From NCBI GenBank assembly GCA_032718475.1, contig JAUCBJ010001957.1, positions 32,298 through 96,297 on the forward strand: DNA of 64,000 nucleotides, in the 5' to 3' direction. Under the pieces are notes generated by a model that saw nothing but the letters and a program-made list of their open reading frames with translations, had not been told where the DNA came from and ran no database searches. Both the position numbers and the translations under genes were made by a program. This document shows, in pieces, positions 2,860-29,241 of the stretch. This stretch comes from Nemertoderma westbladi. Taxonomy: Eukaryota; Animalia; Xenacoelomorpha. Position 1 is the stretch's first letter. The number at the start of each line of letters is the position of its first letter.

Positions 2860-2873
2860 CATCTGGGTCACCA
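2860..2873 (-). promoter_or_regulatory. Primer-binding site, tRNA-Trp type
   Basis: TGGTGACCCAGATG directly after the putative LTR, close to the tRNA-Trp PBS consensus TGGTGACCCCGACG. Confidence 0.75.
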
Positions 2874-2874
2874 G

Positions 2875-3037
2875 TTTAGCGTGAGATAGTGAGATAAGTT
2901 TAGTGTATTATTATCATTTGATCATTAAAATAATAGGTAATAAAAGTATTAATACATACATATACACGTTTATCAGTACAAAGTGTAGTGATCTAGCTAG
3001 CTAAAATAATCATTGTTTATTGTTTTGCCTAGCAACA
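2875..3037 (-). repeat. Putative 5' LTR (~160 bp) of the CsRn1-like element
   Basis: Begins TGTTGC on the minus strand at 3037, abuts the PBS and is AT-rich with AATAAA; partner LTR is outside the window. Confidence 0.55.
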
Positions 3038-5317: not shown

Positions 5318-8062
5318 TACGTATCCACGTACTGTATGTGCGTACGTATCCACGTATCTATATTACATTGAGCGATTTCACATAAGCGTAGGCGAATACT
5401 GTTTTCTGATTGGTCCAGATGAGATATGAGAAAAATTTCATACAAAATGCTTAGGCCTAAAGTCTGTAAGTTAAGTTAGATTCGACAATGTGCCCATATA
5501 TGGGACCGTTACAGTATGCTAAAAAGCGGAAACAACTGGAAACACGTCATTTTCGTACCGTGTAGATACGATTTGGAATACTATTCCCGAAAAGGTAATG
5601 GAATGATAATCACGATCTATCGCAATACTACAACTACAGTATGTTTAAAAATAAATTGAACCTGATGGATATCTCGGAAATCACTACTTTTGACAGATAG
5701 TTATGGTCTATATAATAATTATTTTTCCATTTGCGTGCACTTTTATTTATATTTAGTTACATTCTTACATTGAAATACTATACAGCACACATCTGCCTTT
5801 TATTGTCGGCAAGTCAGAATTAAATTAAAATTAATTATTTGTAATTTCCATAATTAACAAAGTCTGATTAAGACCATTATGATTTATGTATCATTACTGT
5901 AGGCCTATTATGATTAATGACAATAATTATTAGATTAGCACAACTCACTAAAAATAAAATTCAATATCTCAATGACACACGGTCTGAAAATATGACAGAC
6001 TACAGCAAGCATACTGCCTGACAGACAAATCCGAAACCTGGAAACACCGCGGTGGTACTGTAATGATAGGCCTACAGGTACAGAGACACTGTCAGACTGT
6101 TGACTTGACAATGATCTCCTATCTTATCTGGACCAATCAGGAAACAGTATTCGCCTACGCGTATGTATAGGCGTATGTCAAATCGCTCAATGTAATGTAT
6201 AGATACGTGGATACGTACTTACATACGTGTAAAAGTTTAACCCTATGTTTTCTGGTTTTATGCTATTTTAGTTGTTAGTATTCCATTAGGAACATATATC
6301 TGCATATGATATTGGACAGTTCAGTAGGGAACATACCCTTAAATAAGCTCCAAAAGTGGGTTCTTATTTAAGGAAAATGGCTCTTATTTAGGGGTTTTTG
6401 GGCCTTTTTTGGATATTTTTTCGACATAATATGCAAGAACATATGATATTGGACAGTTCAGCAGTTGGATATAGCAGAATAGACATGATATAGACATACT
6501 GCAGTACTGCTGTATTGTAGTGCTGCAGATTTAGACCTGGCCTACCTGAGACTGGCAGACTGGAGGGAGACTTTTGCAACTGCAGCTCAGCTGTACCAGA
6601 CTGTCTGTATCATTACCGTACCGCATACCGGCAGACCGGTAAAGCGTACCCCGTACTACTGTACAGCTGTACTACAGTCAGACAGTACTGCGGGCTGGCG
6701 GGGTTCCTTCCGTTCCTGATCAGCTGATATGACAGTACAGCAGTATCATACCAGGATACTTGATACTGCTGTACTGTTGACTGGTTGACTGTGTAGGGTA
6801 GGCCTTTTACTGCTGTACTGTAATGCCGGCACAGCATTCTTAAAAATGCAGCTGCAATGCAGCATGCCTGTAAAAGCTTTTGCGGAATTAGCCGGTTATT
6901 TTCCCCGTAAAGTACTCTGTAGTTGGTTTAACAGGCATAAAATGCCGTATCCTTACTGTACTGGTGTTTTAGTGGACATAAAAAGCCATTTCTTCTGTAT
7001 GTGTACTTTAGCGGACATAATTAGCAATTCTATGTCGCAATACGCGAAATCCTCTTGAAACAGTGTAGTTACTATGACGACAGCTAACAGCTGAGCTGTA
7101 CAAGTGTAGCTTTTCCTTGTTCTCTGGTGTTTCTTTGTTCGGTCAACCAATCAGAGCGATTCTCCTGCTTTTTGTACAGAAACCTCCGAGAAATCGCGCA
7201 ATGCATTATGGGTCATTGTTTACATTTTGTCCTGAGCCCAGAAGACCGGCTTTGGAATCTCTGTGTTTTCAGTCTTTAGCCCAACATTAGTAGGCTTAAT
7301 TATAGAACGTATATCTGTTATCAAACAAACCTTACTTACTTAACAATTCATACCATACCAAATCACATATCATAACAAGTTATACCTTAACATTGTACTG
7401 CTATTTACTGTCGGTTATTCATTATATCAGTTGATGGAATATTATTATATTTGGAATACCGATAAATAATTACAAAACCCTCAATCTTCTTGATATACTG
7501 AAGGTAAGAGAGACTGGTTACATATAACGATTGCGACTTACATTAAAGTGGTTTTTGAAGTGAATCTAATCACCAATGCTATTTCATAGGCACTACATGT
7601 ATTGGTTGTTGTTCTCTTTATATGTGACTAAAATTAGTGAAGGTCGGCAGATCGGTGTGCAGCATTGTGTATGATTGTGACTGATAACAAAGCATCTCCT
7701 AAAGAATGCGCTATATACGTGAATCCATAGCCATCCCGTTGTGTCTAGTTTAAGTCATAACTCTGTTTACATATCTAGAGCGCCACGTCCTAAAGGAACT
7801 GTTAATATTTCCCGAAAGTGAATAATATTTGTCAGAGATTATATATTACGATCAGTCGAATAATACAGTAGGCCTACACCGCAATAAGGTTAGGCTTCCG
7901 AATCCAGTCTCCCGGGTATATCCAGCGGGTGAATGGTCGCGCATAGACTGGCTTCGGCTAATGTAGTGTATCAAATACTCGTCATAGGCTAAAGACGATT
8001 TATTATCTAGAAGATATCCCAATTTGGCAGGTTAAACTGCTAAAGGTCTAAAAGCGCGAACA
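5318..8062 (+). repeat. 5' LTR of the giant BEL element (~2.75 kb)
   Basis: 5886-8062 is repeated in the 3' LTR with about 10 substitutions and 3 small indels. The 5' boundary is inferred from the TSD: (TG)TACG...CGAACA imperfect terminal inverted repeat. Confidence 0.75.
5334..6226. repeat. Fold-back segment: ~100-bp inverted repeats at 5334-5430 and 6117-6226
   Basis: GTACGTATCCACGTATCTAT...ATTACATTGAGCGATTT...GCGTAGGCGAATACTGTTT..TGATTGGTCCAGAT is present in both orientations. Confidence 0.8.
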
Positions 8063-8074
8063 ATAACAGATATA
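8063..8074 (+). promoter_or_regulatory. Candidate self-priming primer-binding site
   Basis: ATAACAGATATA immediately follows the LTR end and is the exact reverse complement of TATATCTGTTAT at 7310-7321 inside the LTR; no TGG-type tRNA PBS is present. Confidence 0.65.
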
Positions 8075-8349
8075 GCTTCTGTATTGCAGTAGGCAATAAA
8101 GCTGAAGTACCGGTCAGCCGGTCAACCGGTACCTAGTAGGCCTGACTACCTAACCACCCGGACCGGTACCTACAGCAGTACAGGTACAGCAGTATTATTC
8201 GATTTGATAATTATATACCGGTAGGCCTTAATATTGAATCAGGGAGGGCCCGCCCTGGTTTTTTATTGAGATTTTACTTATTTCTGTCAGTTTTATTTAT
8301 TTGTAGGCCAATATTGAGCAGAAGGCGTGTAAGCCTGCTCAGATTGTAC

Positions 8350-8925
8350 AGATAATTTGTAGGCTGGACTGTTGTCTGACTGTTGTTAAGTCTGAAGGGA
8401 CTGTAGTGTGTGTAGAGCGTATGTCCGAAAAAGTACTAGTTAGGAAAGTAGGGGCTTCCAGTGCTGTGAGGTAAACCCCCTCGAAAGAATAAGTCGTACT
8501 ACTCGGTTAGAACGCATACTAACTAACCATTTCGGAGTCTGCATATACTGTAGTGTATTTAGGCTTGATAGTAGTCTGCCAGCGTTTGGTCTGTACTTTG
8601 TTTGTGTAGTCTGTACGGGTAGCGTAATATTTCTTATTTAGATAATTTGTAGGCTGGATTTTGCCTGGCTGTTGTTAGGTCTGAAGAGATTTCGGTGTGT
8701 GTAGAGTGTATGTCCGATAAAGTGCCAGTTGGGAACGTAGGGGCTTCCTGTGCTGTGAGGTAAACCCCCTCGAAAGAATAAGTCGTACTACTCGGTTAGA
8801 ACGCATACTAACTAACCATTTCGGAGTCTGCATATACCGTAGTTTGTTTAGGCTTGATAGTAGTCTGTCAGTATTTGGTCTGCATTTTGTTTGAGTAGTC
8901 TGTACGCGTAGCGTAATATTTATTA
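8350..8925 (+). repeat. Two ~290-bp tandem repeats in the BEL 5' leader
   Basis: AGATAATTTGTAGGCTGGA...GTGCTGTGAGGTAAACCCCCTCGAAAGAATAAGTCG...AGCGTAATATTT starts at 8350 and again at 8640. Confidence 0.9.
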
Positions 8926-10311
8926 TTCAGAGTTTATGCGATTATTCGCAACATTCATATCCCCAAGTTTATTCCTACAGTAATTGTGCTTGTTATATAT
9001 ACCGTTATAGTTAAATTAACCCCGGTACTACATCAGGGCTGCTTGGCGTAGGTAAAGACTGGTGATTTTGTGCCCCGGTCACTCCAGCAGATACCGTGGT
9101 TCTTTTAGCTGTTCAAGTATTTTTAACTACTGATTATTTGTTGTATAAGTACTTGTACCTAATTTAGGGTTTAGTGTACAGTGCTTTCCGAAGTTGATTA
9201 GTGTGTGGGCAGTATATTTGTGTTGTAAAGTGGTTAATAGGCACGTTGGTTCTGGTAGACCGCGGTAATTAACTTCTAGGTAGGAACACTCCGTGATACA
9301 TAACGTAGTACTTATAGCGATACGGCTATAAGTCGTCAGACGGTGGTATTTTCCTATCTGGACAACGCAGTATATTTACTACTACTTATTATTTTCAAAT
9401 ACATTTTCCTATCTGGACAACGCAGTATATTTACTACTACTTATTATTTTCAAATACCGTAGTACCCTGTCCGTTGTAATAACCAGATATTCTAACCCTT
9501 TGTTAGGCTGGTTTGTAGACTTCTTGTAAAATTACCCTAAAATTTCGTACTTGTAATTTTTTGTGTTTATTTAGAGATTGTAATCTCACACCGAATTGTA
9601 CGTAATTTGTAGTATTAAGTAACTTAGGTAAATTAGAATTATTTGTTTTAGTGTCCAACAAGTAGCACTTCACTGAGAGCGCACAGCTTCTGTGTAGTGA
9701 CTCCCCCCAGAAATAATAACATTTATTTTAAATATTGACAAAAACCCATTAAACGGGTATATATATTATAAATCAACTCAAACGATTTATAAATAGTAGG
9801 CCTGCCATACAACAATTAGGTCTCAATATCAGTTGGACTACTGCTCAAATAACGGTAATAAAGTAAGTAAAGTAACCAAGTAACCCCTAAAAATTCAGAA
9901 ATTCAATTATTTAAAATAATTGACATACCGGTATTCACGATAGGCTTATTATTTATTTCTATAAATTTAGGCTAAATTATATACCGGTATTCTGTAATTA
10001 ATTCTAGTCTGTAATTATACTTATATATATACATTATAAGTGTAAGCTGTATACTGGTATTCACGATAGGCCTATTATATATTTATATATATTTGTGCTG
10101 AAATTATATACCGGTATTCTGTGACAAACCTAGTCTGTAATAATACTTATATATATACTATAGGCATACCGGTATTCTAATATATTATATATATATCACG
10201 CTACACTGAGTAGCAGTATCGGTAATCAATTACTAAGCTAACAGCGATACTGAATTACTAGACTTGCTTTAACTGTAATATAGCAGTAGGCATTCAACTG
10301 TACAAACAAAC

Positions 10312-11037
10312 ATGTCTGACACAAAGCAAAACCTGTCAGACAGTCTCCTAGATACGACCATCTGTGACCCAGACAGGAGTGTGGAACGTGTGAGACCGAA
10401 GTTCAACTCACCTCCTACTGTAAGAAAGATCATTCCCCCAGTAGTAATATCAGACCCTAGCCTAGTCCAACATCGTAGGTCTATCATAGGCACTCGAGCT
10501 CAGGTCAAGCAGGACCAAGAAGCAGCGGAACAGCAAATACCCGCGAGCCGAGAACTTATTTCTCAGCGGCCCGACAGCTCCAGTAGTGCGGATACTGTAG
10601 AGCTGACACCCGAGTGCGGAGCAAAGATGGCAGATGCGGTTTATTCGGATCCCCTTCTCATCCTTCCTGCAGCCGTACTCACTAGGGTATTGATTGCGGT
10701 GGAGGAACACCAGATTGATTGGGCGAGAAGTAAGCGATCGACCAAGGATAGTTATGCGGGATATACAAGGGAAGAACTGAAGTCTATTGTCGAGTCGCAA
10801 TGGAACTTCCCCGGACCCGGACTCCCGTTTGACTTATCGGAAGCTGCCTGGGAAGACATACACAGGATGGGAGTGACAAAGGAAACCAGCGATCCAACTG
10901 TGTGGAAGAGGTCAGCAGCCGGATACGTACAGGGATTCTTCAGCTCCATGGAGCGATTAGAGGAACAATTGTTTAGACAACCACAAGGACCTCAAGAGCA
11001 GGGAGAGCTGCTACCCAAGGAGGTGAGGTCTCTATAG
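10312..11037 (+). CDS. Hypothetical 241-aa protein (ORF0) upstream of BEL gag
   Basis: ATG-initiated, stop-free, ~50% GC island in an AT-rich leader; no recognisable motif. Confidence 0.55.
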   Translation: MSDTKQNLSDSLLDTTICDPDRSVERVRPKFNSPPTVRKIIPPVVISDPSLVQHRRSIIGTRAQVKQDQEAAEQQIPASRELISQRPDSSSSADTVELTPECGAKMADAVYSDPLLILPAAVLTRVLIAVEEHQIDWARSKRSTKDSYAGYTREELKSIVESQWNFPGPGLPFDLSEAAWEDIHRMGVTKETSDPTVWKRSAAGYVQGFFSSMERLEEQLFRQPQGPQEQGELLPKEVRSL

Positions 11038-11453
11038 GGTGGCAGCAACAGGCGGCGGCGGACTCGTGAGGGTCTGGGGGCACGTTAAATCTCTCCTATA
11101 GTGCAAGGGAGTTACTGAAGGCCCTCGTGTCTAGCGAACCATGAATCAACATGGTGCCGTGGTACCGTCTAGTCGGCCTGTTGCCGTACTGCCAGTCCTG
11201 TACACAGTAGGGGTGGTGGCTTAGTGTGATCTGTGGTTTATGTGGTCTATGTGGTAGGTCTATGTTTGGTATGTATGAGTTGACCAGACTTTTTACTGTC
11301 TCCGATCGGTTGCCAAAACGTGTCTTTTCCCAGGGTAGCACTATTGGAATGGAGGTGTTACATCGGAATGGACAGGTTTCTGATGATTCTGTTGGTACTA
11401 CTATTGGAATGGAGGTGGCACCCGGAATATCGGCTGCAAGGAGGGGTTGGTGT

Positions 11454-11809
11454 TGTAATAATTTGTTGTATAGGTTATAGTCATGATCACTATAATGGTT
11501 ACAGTGAGTAGAGTATATGATTAGTATAAAGTGATTTAATAATTGGTTTGTAAACGAGTGTGTATGTAGTGAGAAGTTATCCAGCTGTGATGATTTGGAT
11601 GAGAGAATATGTATAGGAGAGGGGTGGTGAGGAAAGGGGTTTTTATGTAGATTATTGGTGTAAACGATTGGATATAGATAGAGTAAAAGATATATTATAA
11701 TTGTTTTGTGTATATTATATGTATTGTATCAATTATTGTGTATTTATATTATATTCTATCTTAAAAATAACTGAAAGCATTTTAAATATTTCGAAATAAA
11801 ACGATTACA
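11454..11809 (+). repeat. 5' LTR (356 bp) of the nested gypsy
   Basis: Direct repeat of 16180-16531. Confidence 0.95.
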
Positions 11810-11825
11810 AGCTATCACCGCAATT

Positions 11826-12596
11826 ATGTCATTAAAGTTAAATCAAATCATACGTCCGTTTAGTGGTGATGACAAAACTGTTAATTTTAACGAATGGATG
11901 AAGAAATTTCTATTAGTCGCGAAAACTCAGAAATGGGAACAGTTGGAAAATCACCTGCCATTGTTGTTGGAGGGGTCAGCATTCACGGTGTATGACCAAT
12001 TATCAGATGAAGCCAAAGGAAATATAGATAGTATCGTAAGCACGTTGACCACCGCATTTTCGTTGACACCAACACAAGCATATAAAGCTTTTACGAAACG
12101 TATGTGGTCTCCGGATGAAGCTGTTGAAGTGTACCTGTCGGACTTGAAACGGTTAATTTTGCTAACTGGAATCAAACCATCGGACATTGAGCGTATTCAA
12201 CCAATAATAAAAAGTCAATTTGTTAGCGGATTACCCAATGACCTCAGTAGTAAACTAGTTACAATGAATGCGGTTGAAAGTGAATTGATGAGTTTAGAAG
12301 AATTAGTGACGAAAGCGAGACGTATCATCGCAGATCGAAAGTGCGATGACGGTATAGGAATTATCGGTGCTGTTGGGGAACGCCGCCGTCCTTATCAGCA
12401 CCCACATAATGATGGTGATCGTAGTAACAGAGCTACAGCGTCGTTTATCTGTTACAATTGTGGGAAACCGGGACATATTTCGTCACAATGTCCCTCAGAG
12501 AGAAAAACTGTCAAATGTTACCGCTGCTCTGGTTATGGCCATATTGCGAGAAATTGCGGCACTAAGGAATCGGGAAACGCGAATGGGGGGTTGTAG
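11826..12596 (+). CDS. gag: gag with two CCHC zinc knuckles
   Basis: CYNCGKPGHISSQC and CYRCSGYGHIARNC; G-GGA-AAC slippery heptamer at 12572-12578 leads into an open -1 frame. Confidence 0.92.
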   Translation: MSLKLNQIIRPFSGDDKTVNFNEWMKKFLLVAKTQKWEQLENHLPLLLEGSAFTVYDQLSDEAKGNIDSIVSTLTTAFSLTPTQAYKAFTKRMWSPDEAVEVYLSDLKRLILLTGIKPSDIERIQPIIKSQFVSGLPNDLSSKLVTMNAVESELMSLEELVTKARRIIADRKCDDGIGIIGAVGERRRPYQHPHNDGDRSNRATASFICYNCGKPGHISSQCPSERKTVKCYRCSGYGHIARNCGTKESGNANGGL

Positions 12597-15500
12597 GGGT
12601 CGCCGCTTTAACTTCCTCCCGCGATTTGTTGCCAAGATGTTCGGCGAATATTTCATCAACAGACGGATCAGCTAAGTATATTTGTAGAGTAGGTGTTGAC
12701 TCTTATTGTTCAAAGACTATTGTATCATCAGGTTTTCTGTATGGTAAATCTGAATTTATATTTTCTAATGCCAATTGTTCAGAGACTTTTATGATGTTAA
12801 ACGGTACCAAAATTTATACTGTAGGGAAGATTTCAATTTATTTGCATAATTTACCTGGTATTGTTGGAGGGTTTTGTTTTGATGCATGGGTAGTAAACGG
12901 ATGTGATATATTTGATGTTGATGTTTTATTGGGAATCGATGCAATTGTGTGTTTGGGTGGTGTGAAGATACATTCATCTGATTGTATATCTGTTTCGTCA
13001 ATTGAATTTTTAGGATGTGGATCAAATAATTTACGTCCAAATTATTGTGGTGCACTGACATCAAATAGTGATAATGATAAAGTTAAGTCAGATAGTACAA
13101 ATTCTAGTGGAGACAATAATGAGCTAAATTCAAATACCGCAAGTTTCTTTTATCATGATAACGGTGATATCACCATCACTGAAAGTGATTTCGTAGTAAA
13201 GTTTGATAGTTTATCAAAGTTGTGGACCGTAAATTGGGTGTGGAAGAATAATAAGCCCCCAATTCATAAAGTTGGCAGTGGTATTGGTGATTACAATATA
13301 AAGTTATCAGATTCACATAACACCATGTTTGAGAATGAAATTCAAGTTTGGTTGACAAATGGGTTTATTGTAGAATATGACCCGATTGAACACGGTGAAA
13401 TTGAATGTGTGTTACCGTTAATGCCTGTGGTCCAGGAACACAAGATCACAACTCCTGTGAGACCTGTATTAGATTACTCAATGTTGAATAGTTGCTTGGT
13501 GAGTTTTCCAGGACAACAAATGGGAATATGTAATAATAAATTGCGAAACTGGCGACAGCGTTCATCAAATAGTACGATTATAGATATTAAAAAAGCATAT
13601 TTACAGATAAGAGTTGCTCCACATTTGTTGAAATATCAAGCACTTTTATACAAAGATACTATTTATATAAAATGACACGAATGGGGTTTGGATTAGAGAT
13701 TGCAAGAAAAGTTTTAGAAACTGTGATTGAGTTCATCTTTAGTGTTAGCAAATTTCCCGAAAATGCAGTAGATTTCTATGTGGATGATGTCTATTGTGAT
13801 GAGAATTTGGTATCTGCAAGTTCAGTGGAAATTGCTTTGAACAATTACGGTTTACCCACAAAACCCCCTACAAGTATCAAAGAAAATGACGTTTTGGGCT
13901 TACATGTATTCGAAGCAAATTCTGAGTTGTGTTGGAAGCGACGTAACAAAGGTGATCTTATACCAGATTTATTTAGCATGACTCGAAGAGGTCTACATTC
14001 ATGGACTGGTAAGGTAACTGGCCTATATCCCGTATGCAGTTGGTTACGATTAGCCTGCAGTTGGTTGAAACGACAATGTATAGGAGATTGGGATAGTCCA
14101 GTTGACTCATGGATATTAAAATTGGTGAAAGTTACATGGGAGAGCATATGTAATAACGATCCAGTATGTGGAGTATGGAATGTAAATACTCTTAATGGAA
14201 ATTGTGTGATGTGGTGTGATGCTAGTGACATTGCTAGAGGAGTTCTTCTAGAAGTCGATGGTAGAATAATTGAGGATGCTGCTTGGCTACGAAAGAAAAA
14301 TGAATCAAAAGCTCATATCAATGTGGTGGAATTAAATAGCGTGGTCGATGGAATCAATCTCGCAATAGAGTGGAATATTAAACGATTCACATTATGTTCA
14401 GATTCACAAATTGTGTGCAGGTGGGTTGAAGCAACTCTGAAAAATATACATCGAATTCATGTCGGGGGAATGTATATGAATTTGGTAAAACGTCGTTTAG
14501 AACTGTTGCTAGAGTTAGTACAGTTATATGGTTTAGATGTTGAGGTAAAGTGGGTGAAATCTGAACAAAACTTGTCTGATAAACTAACGAGACTACCCAG
14601 AGGTTGGAAAGAGTCTGCCACGGTAAATCAACCTGAAATCGAGACATGTAATACGGATAAGTGTTCGGGAATCGGTGCTGTAATGTACCATAACGATAAA
14701 GAACTATATTGTGGAATTAAATTAGAGCATATAAGAAGAGATCAAATTCAAGACAAAGATATAAACATAATGCTAAGTGATCCTTCACATATCTCAAAAA
14801 CAACAAACTCATACAAAAATGTTAGATCTCAGTTAATGGTGTATAGCGGAATGTTAGTTCGCAAAGTGAAAGTTCCTCCAAACGATTTATTAAATGTTCC
14901 AGTAATTCCAAGTAGTTTAGTCAACGAAGCTATTAAGAATGTCCACGATTCTTATGGTCATCCATGCAGTGAAACTACAAGAGAAATAATCAGGCGGCAA
15001 GGTTATTTCCCCAATATGATGTCGCAATGTCAGAAATTCGTTAAAAGTTGTGAAAGGTGTTCATTATCCGATCCTAAAAAACCAGACGATATTAACCCAA
15101 CAACCCAAATGGTAATACCTGATCGTCCATGGCAAGTGGTTCAGATTGATACCATGAAAATAACTGGTGATATACACTTTGTAGGGTTACTGGCTATGTT
15201 TGATGTATTAACAAAGTATGTTGAAGTAGAACTTTTGAAAGATTATACTAAAGAGACTGTTGTGTCCAAGTTGCTGAAGATATGCCGACGATGGGGTCCC
15301 CCCGAGGTGATACGTTGCGATTCTGGTACTGAGTTATGGAATTCCATGTCGAAAGCATTATATAACTCTTTTAATATTATTGTTAGACGCGGAGCAGTGA
15401 GACATCCAAGAAGTCAGGGAGCAGTAGAACGTTTTAACAGATCATTTTTAACATTGGTACGAAAAACGTTAGAACGAAGTACAGATTGGGCTGTAGAATT

Positions 15501-16122
15501 GGATCAATTGTTATATTTCTATCGTCACAGACCTACGACTACAACTGCCATGAGTCCTACAAAAGCGATGTGTGGTTGGGATTGTTGTTCTAGAAATATC
15601 GATAAGAAATCTGGGTCATCATGGTCCCAAGGTCTAAATCCTTCTTTAGTTGATACTCTGGAAGAGTGTATGTCAAAATTAGATGGAATAGACATTTCAA
15701 CACCACAAATCTTTGCCACTGGAGATTTGGTGTATTTATTACGTGAAGATAGGTCGCCTAAACACATGACACAATGGACAAAGGGATGGACAGTGACTGA
15801 TATTATAAACTCAACAACAGTACGAATATCTAATACCAATAAGGAGATCAAAGACAAATTTGTAAACATTGATATAATAAAACACGCAGTAGAAGTAAAT
15901 ATTGATGACCGTTTGGAAAAAGCAAAGATTAAAGAGGATGATAATATAATAAAATCCGATGACAGCGATGATTTCTTAGAATTTGAATGTGGAGAGTTTG
16001 ATCAAAGCGATAACAGCAACCAAAATACTGATAATGACGAAAATGAAGATGCAGTAATACCACGACGATCTACACGTGTGAGACGTCCTGTTGATCTGTA
16101 TGGAAATCCAAAACGTTATTGA
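12572..16122 (+). pseudogene. pol: pol of the nested gypsy, with one 2-bp frameshift near 13665
   Basis: PR-like VDSYCSKT; RT PVLDY...DIKKAYLQI...RMGFGL...YVDD; RH WCDASD...HINVVELNSV...SDS...SDKLTR; IN HDSYGH...CERC, QIDT, CDSG, VERFNR. Confidence 0.9.
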
Positions 16123-16179
16123 TGATGTTACTGAGGGGGATGTAATAAATATGATAGACGGGGTTCTATCAGAGGGGGA

Positions 16180-16531
16180 TGTAATAATTTGTTGTATAGG
16201 TTATAGTCATGATCACTATAATGGTTACAGTGAGTAGAGTATATGATTAGTATAAAGTGATTTAATAATTGGTTTGTAAACGAGTGTGTATGTAGTGAGA
16301 AGTTATCCAGCTGTGATGATTTGGATGAGAGAATATGTATAGGAGAGGGGTGGTGAGGAAAGGGGTTTTTATGTAGATTATTGGTGTAAACGATTGGATA
16401 TAGAGTAAAAGATATATTATAATTGTTTTGTGTATATTATATGTATTGTATCAATTATTGTGTATTTATATTATATTCTATCTTAAAAATAACTGAAAGC
16501 ATTTTAAATATTTCGAAATAAAACGATTACA
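16180..16531 (+). repeat. 3' LTR (352 bp) of the nested gypsy
   Basis: Direct repeat of 11454-11809, preceded by a PPT. Confidence 0.95.
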
Positions 16532-17484
16532 CGAGTGAATGATACTCTGGAATCTGTGGTTTGTGTGTGGACGATCAGTGGCAGTTTGCTTGAGCTTTCT
16601 GTTGCTGTGGGTACGTGGTATACGTGAGTGTATGTATGGCCACTGCGAGTGAGTATGGGAAACCTTGCCGGTTGGTTCAGTCGCCGCTGGTTATTAGTAG
16701 GACCATATCTTTACTGCGCCCCAGCATATTTTGTGCACACAAAGTTATTTTGCCCTGACGGCAAAATAAGGTACTCTCGGCTCTTTTATTAGTCGATACA
16801 ATTTTGTCCCCTCTGATTTTGTCACCGATTTGTCTTTCCCGATTATGTCCTCTGTGTGTGCATGGTATGCGTCAGATTTGTGTTTACCGTTATGTACTTG
16901 ATTTCGTGAGCATCTATTGAGTACACGTGTACAGTGACTGGTAAGTGGTGACTTGTTCTTAGCTTTAAGCTAGACAGTATTGTTTGCGGAACCGACTTCC
17001 CCTCAATACTGCCGGCGAGGCGGGTGAAAACGTGTCAAAATTCCATGTTGGGTAGCGCAAGCCCACTTGGGACAAGACCGTCGGTTTGGCTCAAGGGCGA
17101 CCTTTATGCTCGATCGCTATCGACTGGTCCACCCGCCGGTTGACTCTCTGAGTTGGCTCAATGTACAGTCAGGCCACAGTAAGTTGACAGTAGCCGACCA
17201 CCTGGCTACACCGATGAGCTGTGCCGGTGTGATCGGGGGATTGAAAATTGAACCCGGGAAGCATCGGGCTACCCTCCGGCCTGGTCTGATAAAAACGGAG
17301 TCAGACTGGCCCCAAGGGTGGTGGGACAGCGTCCGCCTCGTGGGTGCGCCTCGGAGAGGAGCCCAGAAGGACGCAAGCGTTATCAAGTTCGAGAAAGAAT
17401 TCTAAGAATCAGACTAATCCTATCGGCCTTTGAGGAGGCTTCGAAAAGAAGACAAGACACGTCGTTGCAAGTTGCCGTAAAGAC

Positions 17485-20400
17485 TTGGTTACAGTGGGTG
17501 AGTCTCCAAGTTCAAAGAACTGCCCTGTGGAAATCTCAGTTAGCTCAACCCTTGGAGAATCAACAGACACCACCTTTTCCCAAGTGGAAAGTGAAGCGAC
17601 AGCAGAGAAACCGCATAAGAGGGATGCTATTGACATCTATCTGTCAGACTATCAACGCTTTGTAGGTGACGAAGAGTTGAGGAGACGGCTGGATGGACTT
17701 AGCCCTAATAGTGAAGGAGCCAAGCTTGTGTTGGACGCAATCGATGCGGATATGAGAGCTGCGAACCAAGCTAAATTTGATGAACGCCTCCGCATCGCTA
17801 GAGTCCAAGAAGAACAAGTAAAGAAAAAACATATAGAAGACAGAAAGACAGCGGCAGTGGCAGCAGCAGTGGCAGAAGCGGAAAGAAAGGCGGCAGTGGC
17901 AGCGGCCGAAGCGGAAAGAAAGGCGGTAGTGGCAGCGGCAGAGGCAGTGGCAGAAGCAGAACGGAGGGCATCTGAAGAAACAACCCAACTAGAGTTGGAA
18001 AATCTTCAAGAGAATCAAGACTGCATAAATAAACAGTTAACAGCTAGTCAAATGCAGATGATGAGTCGATCTACTCCCAAAAGACAGGGATATACATCAT
18101 CTGAGGAAGGCGATACCACCGATCCTGAAGGCGGAGGAAATCGATCTCGCCTAAGCAGACGTAGAAGAATGTCCCACCGTCAGAAATTGCCTGATTTGCC
18201 CCCAACTGTTAGAAGGCAACTAGCTAGCACAGACTTAGTAGTACAGAACCCACAGACCAAATAATTAAAATAGAAAGACTCCCTACTATAGTAGATGAGC
18301 CTGAAATTATTAGGCCTGTTCTCGAAGCCACCCCTTTGGTGATAGAGACACCTGTACTCCCAGAACTTACCTCTAAATTCCCTCTGCACAGCACTAAGCT
18401 ACCTGTGCCCAGCAGAACAGCCCATGAGACAGTTCATGTCCTGGACTCCGAGCGAAATATTAATGATTTGTCGCCCGTTGTCCCTCGTCCGCCCGCTACA
18501 ACGTTGGCGGCTCCCGCTTCGGCGGTCGAGTGGGTGGATGAGAGACGGCGGGGGATGGATCTCCTGCTCGGGCAGATGCAGGAGACTGTTAAGCAGTTCA
18601 AGGGCACAGTAAGGGAAAGTAGGTTAGAGTTGCAAGAAGTGCAGCAAAGTATCGCGTTAGAACGCGATAAATTAGTAAATACACAAAAGGGTATACCACC
18701 ACCCCCGGTAACAATGTGTCAACCTGTTAGGTCTGAAGTATCTCATGCGCAAGGTGTGGAGCCTACACGTATCTATACTGCTAGCGAAGTAGAAACTCCT
18801 ATAGTGAACCCTATTAAGGGTAATTATAAACCTGTTGACAATGATATTCCCTATAGACCTGATCATAATCCGAGAAATTTATATACCGATAACTCGATAT
18901 TAAATAACACGATGGCCCAAGAAAGTTTTATGCGTCAAATGGCTAGAACCGAAGCCCGTCAAGCGGTAAAGGTGGGAGAGATAGTCAAGTTCAATGGAGA
19001 TGAGATGAAATGGTTACCTTTTAATGAATATTATAAAGATAACATACAGAACTCTGTGCTATCTAACGGAGAGAAACTTAGATTCCTCATCGAGTGCTTG
19101 GAAGGATCTCCCAAGTTAATGGCGTTAAAGTTTATTGGACATCCAGACGGATTAAGACAAGTTTGGGATACACTAAACATCAGGTATGGTAATAGGAATA
19201 ACATAGCTAAATATTTGTATGCAAAATTAGTAGCGCCCCGAAAGTTCATTAGCAGCGGGATAATAGAGTTTTCCGATGAGATTCAAGAGATCTGTAGACA
19301 ATTAGATTGGTTAGGTAAGTCTCATGAATATCAGAGTTCTATGGTTATTGGAGCCGTGGCTTCTACTTTACCGAAGGGTGGAGTAGGTACACGCTGGGAT
19401 AAGAAAGTGTTATATATGATGGAACAATAACGACGAGACCCTACCATGGCTGATCTCATGTCATTCTTAGATGGAGAAGTGAAATTACAGCTCCTAAGGC
19501 AGTCCAGAGAGAAGACACCGGAAAACAAGGTAAGTGAGAAACCCGTTTCTAGGAGAAAAGTAACACCAGTGTGTTATACCGACGACGGCGAAAGCCAGAC
19601 TTCTCAAGGAGAGGATAGCGGGAAAGACACTGAAAGATCTTATTATGTCAATAAAACGCCTAAAGAACAGGTAAGTAAATTCAAGTCTCGAACCAATGAC
19701 AGGAGAGAACAGGTAAGAAAAACTCCTCCTACGTCTCCTAAGAGAATTCAGGTAAGAAAGCCCGAAGAAAGAACGAGTGTGCACAATGTTATTCAAAATA
19801 AGGTAAGTAACATCAAACCGAAATGTGTGCTATGTGACGGGACCCACCGTTTGAATATGTGTGATGAATTCCTAAAGAAATCATTAATGGAGAGACGGGA
19901 AGTCATGTGGGATAAGCGGTTGTGTTATAATTGCCTCAGACAAGGACACCAAAGGCGAACCTGTTACTCCGACACAAGGTGTGCAAAGTGCGATGCGAAA
20001 CATCATATCTTGTTGCACACAGAATTCGAACGAAACAGTCCGAGTCAGGTAAGTGATTCCGAACTACATGTCCAATTCAGTGATGTGAACGACACTGACC
20101 AAAGTTCTGAGATGGAAGGATTCTATACGGATGAATTCTCCGACGAAGATGAATCCTGTTACATGATAAATACCGCAGTGTATCGAGCACTTACGTATGA
20201 AAAAGACACAGACAGCGACCTCACCCTAACTACTTCTGATCGACAACCATCTTGGAAAGCGCCAACTTCCAATGTAGGAATCCGAGAATTTCCTGTAGTA
20301 CAGTTAAGGGTCCACGGACCTAAAAGGAGTTATATAGTGAACGCCCTTCTTGACTCCGGTAGTACAGGAACATTCATCGACAAAGAACTAGCCGAAGACA

Positions 20401-23400
20401 TCTTTGCTGGACAACCCAAGTTCCGAACTAAGCTAAACATGTCAGGAATTATGCAGGTTTGGAAATCTACAGTAATTTAGCGGATTATTATGTAGGTGCA
20501 TTGTCCACCCCCCAGGATGAACTAGGAGAACATAGTATAAGGTCAGTAAAGATGGTGGCGATAAAGAACTTCGCTACCAGCCAAGTGGAACCTTATAACT
20601 GGGATGAGGACGATTTCACCCCGCAGCTTGAAATACCTAGATTCGCCACCGATTACCCTGGAGTGCAAATACTCATCGGTCAAAACGCGCATGAAGCGCT
20701 CGAGACATTGGAGAAACGGCCTGCTCAACCGCAACCACTACAAGCTTATGAGGGAAGAACTAGAGTGGGTTGGTACTTTACTGGCCCTTCCCGTAGAACT
20801 CTCATGGAAAGATTACCGAAAGATCAGGTATATCAAGTAAGAGAATGGGAAGTTGAGAGCAGTGAGTTAGACGATCCAACTGAGGGAACACCATACTCCT
20901 CAGATAATGACGATGTCCACCAACTCTTCGACGAGGAGAATACCATTGATCTCCTTAAGGTAAACGAGACTTGGCAAAACCAAGTGAACTTATGTCAGCT
21001 CCTTCGTCCATCAGAACGAGACGACTATAACGACGAACTGAATGACGTCATTGAACGTTGTAATGCCAAGACTCGGGATGAACACGCCGTACGATTCTTT
21101 ACTCAAGAGGCTGTAGAGCCCAATTCCTACGATAAGGCCCTATCGGTAGAAGAAGAAAGAGCCAAGCAGATCCAAGAGACAACTACACGTTCTCTTAAAG
21201 ATCAAGGTAGATATGAAATCGGTCTACCTTTCCGAAAGCGAGAACCAAAGTTCATAAACAACAGACCCTTGGCGGAGAAAAGAATTGCTCAACTACATCG
21301 ACGCCTTACGGCAAATTCTTCAGCTAAAGAAATGTATCAAACGCAGTTGAAGAAATTTATTAGCAAGGGATATGCGGAGCGAGTACCGGAAGAAACACCT
21401 ATAACTGAGAGAACATATTATTTAACTCACCATTACGTTCCCAAACCCGGTAAACCCCATGAGGTACGAGTAGTGTTTGACGGCTCCGCCCTCTACATGG
21501 GCCAATCCCTTAATTCCGAATTGTTACCCGGACCCAACTTACTCCAATCCTTGTTGGGAATACTCTTAAGATTAAGACAATATTCAATCGCTTTTGCCTC
21601 TGATATAGAAGGCATGTTCTTACAAGTCAAGGCGCTGGATAGGGATCGAGATAGCCTACGATTTCTGTGGTGGCCTGAAGGAGACCTCAACCAGAAACCG
21701 GTGGAGTACTGGATGACCATCCAGGCTTTTGGGATAATCTCAAGCCCTTCAAACGCCTGTTCAGTGGTGCGCACCACTGCGGATGACAATCGAGAAGCCT
21801 TCTCTAAAGAGGTGATTGACAACATCAAACGGGATATATACATGGACGACAATCTAAAGTCCCTTCCATCAGTCGAAGAAGCCATTGATGTCGCTAAAGG
21901 AACGGTAGAGTGCTTAAAAAGAGGTGGATTTCGATTAACTAAATTCACCAGCAACTCCCGTGAGTTTCTGGAGTCGATCCCGGTAGAAGATCGAGGAGCG
22001 AAAGACCTAGATCTAATCAAAGATGATCTTCCAGAAACCAAGACACTTGGTTTGAAATGGGACACAGAGAGAGATATCCTGTTTTTCCAGCTAAAACAGC
22101 GAGATAATCCAGTTCGGACTAAATGGATTTGTTTAAGTATCCTGAGCACTTATTTCGATCCATTGGGATTTATTAGCCCAGTTATATTGATTGCTCGGAG
22201 TTTAGTACAACAAATGTGGCTTGAAAACCACTCATGGGACGATCCACTTAAGGGAGAATTATTAAAGAAGTGGATGAAATGGGAAGATTCTCTACCAGCC
22301 ATTGAGAACTTTATAATTTCCCGTTCATATTTTGGTCATGTTATTCCTATCAACTCCATGTGTTTGGAGACGCCAGCGATATGGGAATAGGTATAGTAGC
22401 CTACCTAAGAGTGGAAACTCCGGATGGAATCAAAGTCGCCTTGGTTACCTCTAAGGCATTGATAAACAACAAGTTGAAAGTTCCTCAAGAGGAGTTAAAA
22501 GCGGCTCTATACGCTACAGCCATCGGCCGGAATGTAACAGAACAGATCGACTATCCACTGGAGAAAACTGTCTATTGGACCGATGCTTTACTCGTGTTGG
22601 AGTATATAACCAATGAAGTCTGTCAGTTCAGTGTCTTCGTTACCAACAGAGTAGCCATTATACTTAGTCGCACAAAGATGGATCAATGGAGACATTGCCC
22701 CGGAACGATCAATCCAGCAGACATCGCCTCCAGGGGAGCTACTCCACAAGAACTGGTAGATACTCCAGACTGGTTAGGTGGACCCGAATTCCTCTACAAA
22801 GAAGAAGAAGAATGGCCTCCTCATCTTACTACGGCAGAGATCAGACAGGCCAAGGGAGCGGAGAAAGTCAAACCTAAAACTCGGGCGAGTAAATCGAAGT
22901 TATTTAAACCTATGGTAGATCTGTCTGTACTACATACTTCCGGAGACGACGCTTTGGATCAGAGGCCCACAGCCATAAATAAGTCTGTTGTGGAAATCCG
23001 TGAGAAGGATTGGAAATCTGGAATACCAGACGTCTCGCAAGGACTCTCACCTCTCCTGCAGAGAACGATATATCACTACAGTTCCTGGAATCGGCTCTGT
23101 AAGGCCGTTACATATTTAAAAAGATGTTTTCACCATCACTACTCCGGGATGAAGACCAATAGTGATACCGCTCTGCTGACATCGGTGCAGGTCCATGTTG
23201 TTAAAGATCTTCCCAAATATAAGATATCCGACAGGTTTCTGAAGGAGAAGATCAGTTATCAGGAGCATGAAGAAACCAACAAGCAGATGCTGAGACTCCT
23301 GCAATGCTATGATGATTCCGATAAGTATTTCCTGTTGTTGAGAAATCCACAGATGCGCTTAAGGGATCGTTTCTCTAGCACAATGATAGATGGGTTGATA

Positions 23401-24714
23401 CGTGTTGGCGGAAGATTAACGAATGCTCCATTATCCTTTGACACTAAGTTTCCCATACTCATTAGAAATCTTGAAATACAAGTCAAGATGATTGTAGATG
23501 TTCACAGCAAACTTTATCATGCTGGTAGAGAACGAGTTCTTAGCGAAATTCGAACTCGCTATTATTTTTATAAACCCCGTAGAGCTCTGAACCAAGTTCT
23601 TAGGAACTGCATACCCTGTAGGAAAGCATTCAGTAGGCCTTTAACACAGCGAGAGGCAGAATTACCTAGGGAACGAGTAAGCTTCTATGAACCACCCTTT
23701 ACTAATACCGGTGTAGATTTATTTGGCCCTATTGAAGTATATCGTGCTAGGACTATAGTCAAGAGATGGTGTGTCATCTTTGTTTGTATGACTTGTAGAG
23801 CTATCCATCTCGATATGGTGAACGATTTATCTACCAACAGCTTCCTATTAAGCTTACGACGACAGATCGCTCGCTTTGGAACTAGTAACACGATAAGATC
23901 TGATAAGGGAACAAACTTCATTGGTGCCAACAATGAAATCAAAGCTTACGTCAAAGATTGGAACCAAAGACAGGTGGACGATCAGCTAAGGGTAACAGCG
24001 TCTAGCTGGACCTTTAACGCCGCCGACACCCCTTGGTGGGGAGGAAGTTGGGAGAGATTAATTAGAAGCGTGAAGACCGCATTTCACTTTATAGTGCCGT
24101 GCCGCGCGTATCTCACCGACGAACTTTTGCGGACGTTAATGGAGGAAATCGCCGCCTATCTCAACGAGAGACCGCTTATGCCAGTCTCATCGAGTCCCGA
24201 TTCCCTGGAAGCACTAACACCCGCGCACTTCCTACTGAAGAAACCTGTAGCCATGCTCCCACAATCGGAAATCACAGACGGAGACGAATACTGCCGGCAA
24301 ACTTGGCAACTCATGCAGTTGTTATCCCGTTGTTTCGCTGACCATTTCGAAAAACACTATCTGCCCACACTACAACTTCGAACGAAGTGGTTTGCGCAGC
24401 AAGAAAACGTCAGCGCTGGAGACATGGTCCTTATTGTGGATTCAGATCTTCCACGTAAGCGGTGGCAGACAGGTCGTATCATCGAGACTCACATCTCGGA
24501 TGACGGTTTGGTGCGATCGGTAGAACTCGTCGTCATGCGACGTAACTTCAAGAAACTGGGAATTGTCTTCGAGACACAGCAGCTCAATCGCCCAGTTGGT
24601 CGTTTATGTTTACTGGAAAGAGACAGAGAACTCTCCGGAAACTATGGAAGACAAGATACTCTTCCCACGACCACCTCCCTAATCCAACAAACATCTAGGG
24701 ACTCCCCAGCTTAG
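17485..24714 (+). pseudogene. BEL/Pao gag-pol polyprotein with three frameshifts and one in-frame stop
   Basis: KFNGD..KW..F...LSNGEKLRFL..CLEG (DUF1759-like), triple Cys/His box CVLC..H...CYNCL..GH...C..C...HHILLH, protease ALLDSGS, RT RVVFDGS/DIEGMFLQV/YMDD, RH FGDAS/NPADIASRG, IN TGVDLFGP/SDKGTNF/GGSWERLIRSVK and a BEL-type C-terminus (GLVRSVEL...RPVGRLCLLE). Confidence 0.95.
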
Positions 24715-26280: not shown

Positions 26281-26352
26281 AGGGGTAGGCAGCGACGCCC
26301 GCTAGCCTAAAATATAAACTCATTATAATATAGATAAACTCATATAGCAGAT

Positions 26353-29241
26353 ATGACTGAGTTGATAGAAGATGATCTTGGTATCAGGGAGCGATATACT
26401 CTACCTTTACAAGCGTTTGTCGATAGCTTGATACGCGGCGACGCTGGTCCAACTACTACGGAGAATGATGGTCGTTATATCGAACCGCCAATGTCCCCGG
26501 AGCAACTTACGCGCGAATTGGATTATAGAAAGTTCACCGCTCGCTATACGCATCGTAATGGTACGTATATGGACTTCTTAACTACTGGCCATCCTATCGA
26601 TTTACACGATACGGACGATGTAGACACCGAAAGGGAAATGGTTTTATTTAAATATCATACCCAGCGGAGTCGGAACGATAAACCGAGAATAGAACACGAG
26701 AACTCTATTCGAAACAGACTCGAAAGGGAAGACGTTGAAGAGCCGGATAAACGCAGCGACTTCAACGATTATCTGGAATTCCTGAGAGAGACATATCTCA
26801 ATATTGCCAGCCAACAAAATCTCGAAACTCGATATCCTCAAGGTATACATCATGATCCTATGATAGAACTCAAACGACTCTATTTCACTATGATGTATCT
26901 TACCGCCGATTGACCGCTACCTGTCGTCCCAGATAGCTTCGAACAGATGGAGGAATATTGTAAAACTGGAGAACGATCACCCGCATTTCCCCTGCAGGAC
27001 GTGCGTCTTTGGTATTACTGCGACGAATGCCCTAGACCCAATCAGCAAACGGAAAGACATAAACATCCGCGGAGACGTTGCGCTAAACACAGTTTTACAC
27101 GATATACTTATGGGAGTTTCGAGCGAAACCTGTTCGACGTATCACCTACGGTCGCTCGGCTCAAACGATCCTTGAATAAACCAATGATCAGAGTTCCGGA
27201 ATACTCAGTCAGACCTCCTCATTCCTCAGTTAGACCTCAGACTCTTGATCCTAATAGTATCACGGATCCTCCCGAACTGTACTCACTGTTCAAAGATCTA
27301 GTGTTACCCGAACAGTTGATCGGTGGCACTCCGGTAGTGGGCTCGCTAGATATTCGTCAACCCTACCTAGCCGGATTAGGACGCGGTCATCTAATATCGC
27401 CGTTTAACCCGTACAACCGTCCCGGCTTCACCCCGATACAACCCGTTACGGAAGTCGAAGAGAGTGTCGTACGAAACGCTTTAGACGCTATTCGGCAGAA
27501 AATCGGAAAGGGAACTTACGATTATTTGGAGAAACGTAAATTGCAGCAACAAGTCCAAGCGGTGAAAGAATTAGCTTTACCCCAGTTCGATAGAGAAATA
27601 CAAAATCTCGAGGAGGACATCGAACGTGGACGAACCTACTCTTTACAAGAGTTCCTAGATGAGTGTTTACAACAACAAGCGGAGGAAAATCAGCTCGAGG
27701 AGAGACATATAGAACTAGATGAGAGAGAAGAAGCAGCTTTAGCCCAGCCAGAAGCTCAAATCCTTATAACAGATCTCTATTCTAAAACCATTATCCATCC
27801 TTCGATGGTTCCTCATTTCGGAGACAAACTCTTCACCACGGCACAGCCTCAACCGGTTGATATCAACCTAAGATCTCGAGATCTTATCTCTGACGCTCCC
27901 ATGTTGCAACGTCCGCTCATCGAATCCGCTCGTGTCGATGGTATACTCGTTGAACCTCCGGACAATAGAGCGGATCTTGTCCGTCGCATGGTACACGATG
28001 TTAACATACGCGCTAAACCTTTACCGGACTCGTTTTATGGGATCAAAGATCACCCTTATTACGTCAATCTAACACAATATTACATGGTAAAACCGGAAGA
28101 TCCTACACATAGTCTGAGGTTTCTACCACTAATAAATCCTCTCGATCTTGTCGAACTCGAACAACTGCAGAAACATCTGGATCAGTTAGTTAAAGTAAAC
28201 TCATTTCGAAAACCATATAATGTTTCCAGAATAGAGAAAGAAACAATACCTCCGTATAATCTTGATGGATTCATCAAAACTCGATTAGTACACTGGAATC
28301 TTTACGTGTTATTCGAGGAGGAAAGAATACAACGATATGGAGATGTGGAAACATATACTACACAATACTTAAAGTATAGAGATCTACCTAATGCTAGCGA
28401 ATGCGCTACCTTGTGGCATCCAGTGGGAATGACTCTCGAAAACGCCACTAAAGAGTGGAACGAGACTCTTAACGTTATCGAGATGTATGGAGTTGTCACT
28501 TACGATAACGAAGGTAGCGTTCCGGTTGGAGAACTGGGAACTACGCGAATGATACACATACGAGGACTCGCTGGTTCTACCCACATATTTACTCGAGCGT
28601 GTTCCGATGTGATTGATTATTCTTTTGAGACTCTTACTGAGACACAAAAGAAACTCAGACATGGACAATTCGAACTCGCGCAGCGTTACGTCACCGACAC
28701 CGAGCGCAAACCGGCCATGGGTATCGATGGATCGATGTTACCCCAGCCCGTGCTCGAGATGTTGTTTAACGAAAGAATCCTTAAAATCGGCTCAGCTGTT
28801 TATGGAGATCTCCAAAACGACTTTCGGAACATGGAAAACATTCCATACCCTTTCGTTGATACTCAGCTGATTGCTCCCTGGGCAGAAGGCCGAGGTTTCT
28901 TCCGCACTATGTATGCCAATACACCCAGCGGCATTACTAAAGTACAACGAACCTCTATCGGACATCTTGCCTTTCAAGAATACGGATGGAATTTCAAGGT
29001 TGGAAATCCTACCAATTACCAACAAGTATATGGAGATCATTATTCTCGTTTATACTTTGATGGACCATTGACCGCACCTGGCGCCGTATATAGCTTTATG
29101 AGTGTTCCACTTCGTCCCTCCTTAGCTATATACACGATCTTTGAAAACGCAGCACTTGCCGGTTGGCTAGCCGTGCAGTTGTGCAGTCGTACCATGTATC
29201 ATTACTGTAGGCCTATTATGATTAATGACAATAATTATTAG
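26353..29241 (+). pseudogene. Accessory ORF (~960 codons, one in-frame TGA at 26911) with a C-terminal DEDDy/WRN-like 3'-5' exonuclease domain
   Basis: ORFs 26353-26913 and 26947-29241 share a frame. ExoI VVTYDNEG (28504/28510), ExoII LPQPVLEMLFNERILKIGSAVYGD (28807), FVDTQ and ExoIII-like PLRPSLAIYTIFE (29131/29143). The last ~15 codons come from LTR sequence. Confidence 0.75.

What the first reader, a model, noticed from the sequence alone, without database searches (positions are those of the whole stretch)
7310..8074. Tf1-style self-priming signature in a BEL/Pao element
Seen: no TGG-type tRNA PBS follows the 5' LTR. The 12 nt starting at the first base after ...CGAACA (ATAACAGATATA, 8063-8074) are the perfect reverse complement of TATATCTGTTAT at 7310-7321, which is also kept in the 3' LTR at 30630-30641. 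Pairing stops exactly at the LTR boundary, and a CCAAT box lies upstream at ~7147. A rough composition-based estimate puts a chance match within the LTR near 1 in 1000. Established: S. pombe Tf1 and related Tf1/sushi chromoviruses prime minus-strand synthesis with the first ~11 nt of their own mRNA annealed to the PBS. From memory the Tf1 PBS also begins ATAAC; this needs verifying. BEL/Pao elements are described as tRNA-primed. Inference: transcription starts at ~7310 and the RNA primes itself, which would be an independent origin of self-priming.
Basis: partly seen in the sequence, partly recalled or inferred. Interest (0 to 1): 0.92.

Follow-up and report, generated by a model that had tools for sequence, protein, structure and literature searches.

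The report
Self-primer signature in giant BEL/Pao retrotransposon
Where a host tRNA normally lands to start DNA copying, this broken BEL/Pao-type jumping gene carries 12 bases that pair perfectly with its own terminal repeat, and distant relatives keep such a pairing with different letters, so this group likely primes its own reverse transcription, which is not the described route for BEL/Pao elements.

Summary
Observation confirmed: 8063-8074 is the exact reverse complement of 7310-7321 (chance about 1e-3). The true LTR is 6869-8062, bounded by a 5-bp duplication. The right LTR is solo-like and no PPT survives. Pol is BEL/Pao-type and broken. Independent test: none of 19 related loci with a visible LTR end has a TGG site. 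In 13 of 19 the post-LTR sequence pairs with its own LTR over at least 10 nt, against 6 of 380 cross pairs; 9 of the 13 pair only across a GT-AG junction. Self-priming is therefore likely (about 0.75). A start at exactly 7310 is untested: no RNA reads, no TATA at -30, and a rival Inr-like motif at 7269. The link from this LTR to pol rests on one run's loose contig ends. The scan had noted BEL/Pao self-priming before on other DNA (10 notes seen); the splice idea came from them and I tested it on my own loci. Eight literature searches found no report for BEL/Pao; self-priming is known in Tf1/sushi and predicted in plant TAR copia elements.

The parts
6864..6868 (+). left target-site duplication ATGCC
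6869..8062 (+). left LTR, 1194 bp, TG...CA
   Evidence: TSD and termini; 6 X4 contigs have unlike letters before 6869; 3 X4 contig pieces stop at 8062
7147..7151 (+). CCAAT motif (function untested)
7269..7274 (+). Inr-like TCAGTC (motif recalled), rival start site
   Evidence: summed depth rises about tenfold from the bin that starts at 7270 in X1
7310..7321 (+). predicted self-primer, exact complement of the post-LTR site
7330..7389 (+). block that most other copies do not share, directly after the site
   Evidence: summed depth falls from 216,410 to 788 in X1; 4 of 11 listed joints leave at 7322-7324
7504..7509 (+). splice-donor-like GTAAGA inside the LTR, downstream of the site (use untested)
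8063..8074 (+). primer-binding position, no TGG, pairs with 7310-7321
8075..10311 (+). long leader with internal duplications, high copy in the laid runs
10312..11037 (+). ORF0, inferred front part of gag; no homologue found
11040..17350 (+). approximate extent of foreign inserted DNA that breaks the gag region; holds a Gypsy element (11454-16531) and a TGG site at 11152-11161
17434..24714 (+). BEL/Pao gag-pol in five separate frames (DUF1759, zinc knuckle, protease, RT, Peptidase_A17, integrase zinc finger, DUF5641); broken
26338..29241 (+). extra ORF in two pieces; C-terminal part resembles WRN-like 3'-5' exonucleases (lead); membership in the element untested
29195..30176 (+). 99.6% copy of the left flank 5887-6868; ends in ATGCC
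30177..33888 (+). right LTR copy, solo-like, split by a DNA element at 31000-33500 (15-bp inverted ends, TT duplication)
30630..30641 (+). second copy of the predicted self-primer
33889..33893 (+). right target-site duplication ATGCC

Best explanation
This is a broken copy of a high-copy BEL/Pao-type LTR retrotransposon whose primer-binding position (8063-8074) pairs exactly with a site in its own LTR (7310-7321), and the family likely primes minus-strand synthesis with that piece of its own RNA instead of a tRNA. Shown: the pairing, its register at the LTR edge, the absence of TGG, and the same design with other letters in related families. Inferred: the RNA starts at or a little upstream of the site (7304-7311 about 0.5, 7271 about 0.25, elsewhere about 0.25); the site folds onto the PBS; a cut after 7321, by the element's RNase H as in Tf1, frees a 3' OH; RT copies 8062 back to 7322 (about 740 nt) and jumps to the 3' R region. 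Plus-strand synthesis would then copy the attached primer and rewrite the PBS, which would keep the two sites matched as they drift. In this family the primer is contiguous; in many relatives it would be assembled by splicing an intron in the LTR.
For: Chance 0.00075-0.00125 for this copy. Of 19 related loci with a visible LTR end, 0 have TGG within 5 nt and 13 pair with their own LTR over 10-15 nt, 9 across a GT-AG junction and 4 contiguously; the 3' flank controls reach at most 7 nt; cross pairs reach 10 nt in 6 of 380, of which 3 are sister loci. L084 and L086 differ by matched changes on both sides. In 11 more loci whose LTR end was not visible, a scan found 10-11 nt junction matches with GTAAG/GTACG/GTACT donors among the top two hits in 9 (L029 and L031 are one family), supportive only. 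The boundary of the complement carries a signal: A two bases upstream in 15 of 17 relatives (P 5e-8) and a pyrimidine-purine step at or next to its start in 15 of 18 (9.1 expected, P 0.004). Folding predicts the helix with probability 0.73-0.97 for RNAs starting at 7311 or 7271. Other copies share 7270-7322 and diverge right after it. Tf1 uses an 11-nt self-primer cut by RNase H (PMC7175516, passages).
Against: No RNA, cDNA or start-site data. No TATA at -35..-24 here and in only 1 of 18 loci; Inr-like motifs are not enriched. The window does not fit the A at -2 (it has C) and its RT is a long branch, at most 45% identical to the loci used, so transfer of their result is an inference. 6 of 19 loci miss (5-8 nt; one has a cut LTR, two have unclear ends). 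Controls in the end-unseen scan reached 9-11 nt. If the start lies at the complement, first exons in spliced relatives would be under about 11 nt, which is hard to accept. No compensatory change was seen inside this family: none of the 40 shown of 129 variant rows falls in either site. The LTR-to-pol link rests on loose ends of 3 contigs of one run.
Confidence: 0.75

Rival explanations
1. The pairing is real and kept, but it is an RNA switch (packaging, dimer or translation control); copying is primed by something else, such as a host RNA fragment or a protein.
For: Only pairing is shown, not priming. A few more pairs beyond the core are predicted (7301-7307 with 8077-8083).
Against: The pairing starts 0-4 nt from the LTR end, is 10-15 nt long and perfect in 13 of 19 loci, which is where and how a primer fixes the cDNA end. 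The extra pairing is not above chance (window P 0.11, 17 families combined P 0.24). No TGG alternative at these LTR ends.
Confidence: 0.08
2. This LTR does not belong to the BEL pol. The BEL element has its own tRNA site (TGGTGCCGTG at 11152, tRNA-His-like by recall) and a purine run after pol, and it sits nested in another element that owns the LTR.
For: CA followed by TGG at 11150-11154; GGAGTGGG then TG at about 24725; ORF0 has no homologue; 9.4 kb lie between the PBS and the first recognisable gag frame; summed depth falls after about 11.1 kb.
Against: No repeat pair links 24700-26340 to anything upstream. In run X5, 3 contigs run from the end of ORF0 into letters like those at about 17.4 kb, and X4 and X5 pieces stop at 11004-11013, so the TGG site lies in foreign inserted DNA. 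The closest RT relatives have no TGG site either.
Confidence: 0.09
3. The primer comes from the 3' copy of the repeat in the RNA (cut near its 3' end or supplied by the second packaged RNA), not from the 5' end.
For: The site is in both LTRs, so it is in the RNA wherever transcription starts. In L084 and L086 an AATAAA follows the site.
Against: Here the nearest poly(A)-like signals lie 140-220 nt downstream (GATAAA 7461, ATTAAA 7542), so the site is not at the predicted 3' end. A sharp 5' limit of the complement with its own sequence signal fits a short primer.
Confidence: 0.05
4. Chance match in this copy; an unknown host RNA primes the family.
For: The scan reads very many windows, so events at 1e-3 occur. 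Host RNAs could not be searched.
Against: 13 of 19 own pairs against 6 of 380 cross pairs; every family has a different site; no tRNA gene in the window and no Rfam match of note in 5800-11500.
Confidence: 0.03

Closest known systems
Tf1/Tf2 of Schizosaccharomyces pombe, Tj1 of S. japonicus, Tf1/sushi and Tcn1 chromoviruses (Ty3/gypsy)
   Same: No tRNA site; 11-12 nt after the LTR pair with a site in the LTR; PBS begins ATAAC in Tf1 too (PMC7175516, PMC4600332, PMC11042837; passages seen).
   Different: Pol is BEL/Pao-type with no chromodomain hit; about 740 nt lie between primer and PBS; the start site is unmapped; many relatives build the complement across an intron, which none of the passages read describes for Tf1.
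TAR lineage of Ty1/copia (Houba, Osr-1)
   Same: Self-priming predicted from at least 10 nt of complementarity starting 0-5 nt after the LTR (PMC6317226, passages); this locus meets that rule.
   Different: Plant copia elements with a different pol order; shows that self-priming has already been proposed outside chromoviruses.
Belpaoviridae / Semotivirus (BEL, Pao, Tas, Suzu, Sinbad)
   Same: PR-RT-RH-IN order, DUF1759, Peptidase_A17, DUF5641, 1.2-kb LTR, 5-bp duplication; RT 38-47% identical to BEL proteins of corals, echinoderms, Ciona and a fish among the named hits in the top 35.
   Different: The ICTV profile describes an 18-nt PBS for tRNA-Arg or tRNA-Gly and 4.2-10 kb genomes (PMC8742986, whole text). 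Here there is no tRNA site, over 11 kb to the pol stop without the insertion, and perhaps an extra exonuclease-like ORF. The subclade was not assigned: no named reference was on hand.

Membership tests
BEL/Pao (Belpaoviridae) | gag-pol with PR-RT-RH-IN order and BEL-type domains | tested here: met
   DUF1759, Peptidase_A17, Integrase_H2C2, DUF5641 in order; broken into five frames
BEL/Pao (Belpaoviridae) | RT most like BEL/Pao RTs | tested here: met
   93 hits, most with PF05380; long branch in a quick tree, place unsure
BEL/Pao (Belpaoviridae) | TG...CA LTRs of 0.2-1.2 kb with target duplication | tested here: met
   1194 bp, ATGCC
BEL/Pao (Belpaoviridae) | LTR and pol belong to one element | tested here: inconclusive
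   favoured by loose ends of 3 X5 contigs; no uninterrupted copy seen
BEL/Pao (Belpaoviridae) | 18-nt PBS for host tRNA-Arg or tRNA-Gly | tested here: not met
   no TGG after the LTR here or in 19 relatives; hence filed as BEL/Pao-type by its proteins, not as a textbook semotivirus
BEL/Pao (Belpaoviridae) | PPT before the 3' LTR | tested here: inconclusive
   absent in this copy because the right LTR follows a duplicated flank; the majority cell before 6869 in 6 X4 contigs ends purine-rich at agreement 0.5
BEL/Pao (Belpaoviridae) | genome of 4.2-10 kb | tested here: not met
   6869 to 24714 less about 6.3 kb of insertion is about 11.5 kb before the 3' part
Tf1/sushi self-priming group | Ty3/gypsy chromovirus pol | tested here: not met
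   BEL domains, no chromodomain hit
Tf1/sushi self-priming group | PBS complementary to the element's own LTR | tested here: met
   12 of 12 nt at offset 0
Tf1/sushi self-priming group | primer is the first 11 nt of the mRNA | not testable with these tools
   no raw RNA reads on hand; motif tests mixed
Tf1/sushi self-priming group | RNase H cuts the RNA duplex to free the primer | not testable with these tools
   acidic residues in RNase H-like motifs read by eye in the 22306 frame (motif pattern recalled); activity unknown
Tf1/sushi self-priming group | U5-IR-like structure next to the PBS | tested here: inconclusive
   a hairpin is predicted at 8023-8044, 18 nt from the LTR end; not compared across copies

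The most novel reading that the evidence does not exclude
A wide marine lineage of BEL/Pao elements has dropped tRNA priming. It primes with its own RNA, and in most families the host spliceosome assembles the primer from a tiny first exon and the next exon, so that splicing gates reverse transcription. This divergent giant family carries the intron-less form, and may also carry its own 3'-5' exonuclease that trims the primer end.
Probability: 0.45. Interest if true: 0.88.

Novelty: new variant of a known kind. Interest (0 to 1): 0.72.

Why it matters
BEL/Pao elements are described as tRNA-primed, with replication assumed from other families and poorly studied (PMC8742986). A self-primer here would be a separate origin of a mechanism proven only in fission-yeast Tf1. 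It would explain BEL elements in which no PBS is found, free them from silencing by tRNA fragments (inference), and, where the primer spans an intron, tie retrotransposition to host splicing. The prediction is exact and can be tested on natural RNA and cDNA from the host animal.

Tried and rejected
No whole genome is held, so host tRNA, snRNA and rRNA ends and full sister copies could not be read. No RNA holder was listed; X5 is only guessed to be RNA and is contigs. Viral contigs gave no relative. The 2176-bp repeat as LTR was rejected: no TSD at 5887, low depth over 5500-6150 and 6585-6800. GTACCA before 29195 reads as TGG on the minus strand; it was set aside because it is a duplication junction inside an ORF. 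Extended pairing beyond the core was not above chance, so it says nothing about an upstream start. TATA and Inr enrichment near the complement: not significant. Rfam in 5800-11500: two weak miRNA hits far under the gathering score. ORF0: no homologues. Extra ORF: no hit, one weak hit (E 4e-4) with a sub-threshold exonuclease match; its single-sequence fold was useless (pLDDT 32). The careful tree did not finish; the quick tree leaves the window's place open (L096 left out as too short). The nested Gypsy has neither TGG nor a self-complement (at most 5 nt). Of 98 loci fetched, 19 had a visible LTR end and 11 a visible LTR start only; the other 68 were not used. I reset the LTR ends of L061 and L096 by hand after and widened the donor patterns; the same patterns were used for the controls. 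Look-ups by place and by sequence in earlier notes were blank. PMC3118150 and PMC554778 hold no mention of primer or PBS terms. Supplements were not read.

Full report
Observation. The 12 nt at 8063-8074 follow the LTR end directly and are the exact reverse complement of 7310-7321, which recurs at 30630-30641. No TGG follows the LTR. In 20,000 dinucleotide shuffles of the LTR the 12-mer appears with frequency 0.00075, or 0.00125 if offsets 0-5 are allowed. One such match would not be enough in a scan of this size, so I looked for independent tests.

Anatomy. Self-comparison shows a direct repeat 5887-8062 / 29195-33888, but its first 982 bp are flank, not LTR. ATGCC stands before TG at 6869, before 30177 and after 33888. 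Summed contig depth is low over 5500-6150 and 6585-6800 and very high from about 7.0 to 11.1 kb (depth is no copy number). Six X4 contigs carry unlike letters before 6869 and three X4 pieces stop at 8062. The LTR is therefore 6869-8062. The right copy has the duplication on both sides and follows a 99.6% copy of the left flank. It looks like a solo LTR in a tandem duplication or in a second haplotype joined in the assembly; I cannot tell which. The element's own 3' end and PPT are missing here. A 2.5-kb DNA element splits the right LTR.

Coding part. Frames from 17434 to 24714 carry DUF1759, Peptidase_A17, an integrase zinc finger and DUF5641, and the RT resembles BEL proteins of marine animals and fish. 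The copy is broken into five frames. Between the leader and these frames lie ORF0 (10312-11037) and about 6.3 kb that include a Gypsy element and a TGG site at 11152. That site is a real rival PBS. In run X5, however, three contigs leave the window at the end of ORF0 and go on with letters like those near 17.4 kb, and X4 and X5 pieces stop at 11004-11013. I infer that the stretch is foreign to the family and that this LTR belongs to the BEL pol. The evidence is thin: one run, no spanning piece, and ORF0 has no homologue.

Relatives. An RT alignment fetched 98 loci from metagenome and MAG contigs; 19 show the 3' end of an LTR and 11 only its start. None of the 19 has TGG within 5 nt of the end. 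A contiguous search at offsets 0-3 found at least 10 nt in 3 of 19. Earlier notes of this scan (unchecked) suggested primers made by splicing, so I also allowed GT-AG junctions. Then 13 of 19 paired with their own LTR over 10-15 nt: 9 across a junction and 4 contiguously. The 3' flank controls reached at most 7 nt. Cross pairs reached 10 nt in 6 of 380, three of them between sister loci (the window is one of the 20 rows). Six loci missed. L084 and L086 differ by matched changes on both sides. In the 11 end-unseen loci, 9 had a 10-11 nt junction match among their top two hits, one a 12-13 nt contiguous match and one only 8 nt, but controls there reached 9-11 nt, so this only supports. Some loci are sisters (L037/L096, L084/L086, L025/L027, L092/L060, L056/L065), so the number of independent cases is lower than the counts. 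In a quick tree spliced and contiguous forms are mixed, and the window is a long branch of unsure place.

Within the family. Other copies share 7270-7322 and then differ: depth in X1 is 255,102 and 216,410 in the two bins from 7270, then 788 and 3,769, and 4 of 11 listed joints leave at 7322-7324. Most of the LTR further downstream is shared too, so this fits constraint on the site but does not prove it. None of the 40 shown of 129 variant rows lies in either 12-mer; that is too few to count as a test.

Start site. Not shown. There is no TATA at -35..-24 here and only 1 in 18 loci; Inr-like motifs are not enriched. The 5' limit of the complement does carry a signal: A at -2 in 15 of 17 relatives (P 5e-8) and a pyrimidine-purine step in 15 of 18 loci (P 0.004). 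That fits a start or a cut at that point. The window has C at -2 and A at -3 and -4. An Inr-like TCAGTC at 7269 marks the upstream edge of the shared block and is the rival start. Extra pairing beyond the core is predicted but is not above chance.

Mechanism. Shown: pairing, register, no tRNA site, matched variation among families. Inferred from Tf1, where the first 11 bases pair with the PBS and RNase H cuts between bases 11 and 12 (PMC7175516, passages): fold-back, a cut after 7321, about 740 nt of strong-stop DNA, transfer to the 3' R region. Copying of the attached primer during plus-strand synthesis would rewrite the PBS and keep both sites matched. I put self-priming at 0.75. Rivals: the LTR is not BEL's 0.09, an RNA switch 0.08, a primer from the 3' copy 0.05, chance 0.03.

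Comparison. It works like Tf1 but is no chromovirus. By its proteins it is BEL/Pao-type, yet it fails the tRNA PBS and size given in the ICTV profile (PMC8742986, whole text). Self-priming has also been predicted for plant TAR copia elements (PMC6317226, passages), so a separate origin has precedent. Eight searches listed no report of it in BEL/Pao. The library lacks most subscription papers, the original Suzu and Levin papers and Repbase reports, which I did not see. Also seen as passages only: PMC4600332, PMC11042837, PMC13524379, PMC3118150, PMC3601003, PMC5341516, PMC8220671, PMC12451622; PMC554778 gave no hit (53). Ten earlier notes of this scan report the same idea on other genomes; they are leads, not support.

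Verdict. A real and probably functional self-primer signature in a superfamily described as tRNA-primed: a new variant of a known mechanism, interest 0.72. The exact start site and the LTR-to-pol link in this copy remain open.

Noticed in passing
window 26338-29241: Extra ORF after pol, in two pieces. Residues 500-760 of the long piece resemble WRN-like 3'-5' exonucleases (Atlas score 0.93; one weak hit). Whether it belongs to the element is untested.
   Followed up: partly
L014, L025, L034, L037, L061, L084, L086, L092, L096: The complement of the PBS exists only across a GT-AG intron of 76-451 nt inside the LTR, with 3-9 nt on the upstream side.
   Followed up: yes
17 related loci, two bases upstream of the complement: A in 15 of 17, after a C/G-rich run; meaning unknown (start site, cap-proximal stop of RT, or cut signal).
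   Followed up: partly
window 11454-16531: Nested Gypsy element with 356-bp LTRs, DUF7047, no target duplication, no TGG site and no self-complement; its primer is unexplained.
   Followed up: partly
window 11152-11161: TGGTGCCGTG after CA, tRNA-His-like by recall, in inserted DNA with no matching LTR pair found.
   Followed up: partly
window 31000-33500: Non-coding-looking DNA element with 15-bp inverted ends, TT duplication and inner tandem repeats of 100 and 21 bp.
   Followed up: no
window 34629-35966, 41764-43899, 45229-46788: Long single-frame host-like ORFs: ArfGAP, ABC transporter and G-patch proteins; intron-poor host genes or retrocopies.
   Followed up: no
window 47-2907, minus strand: A second broken Gypsy-like gag-pol, read by eye from the translations.
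   Followed up: no
L081-L098: BEL/Pao retrotransposon DNA sits in contigs of bacterial MAGs, most likely host DNA binned with them.
   Followed up: no
window 48400-58700: Long satellite arrays with units of 29-30 and 49 bp.
   Followed up: no
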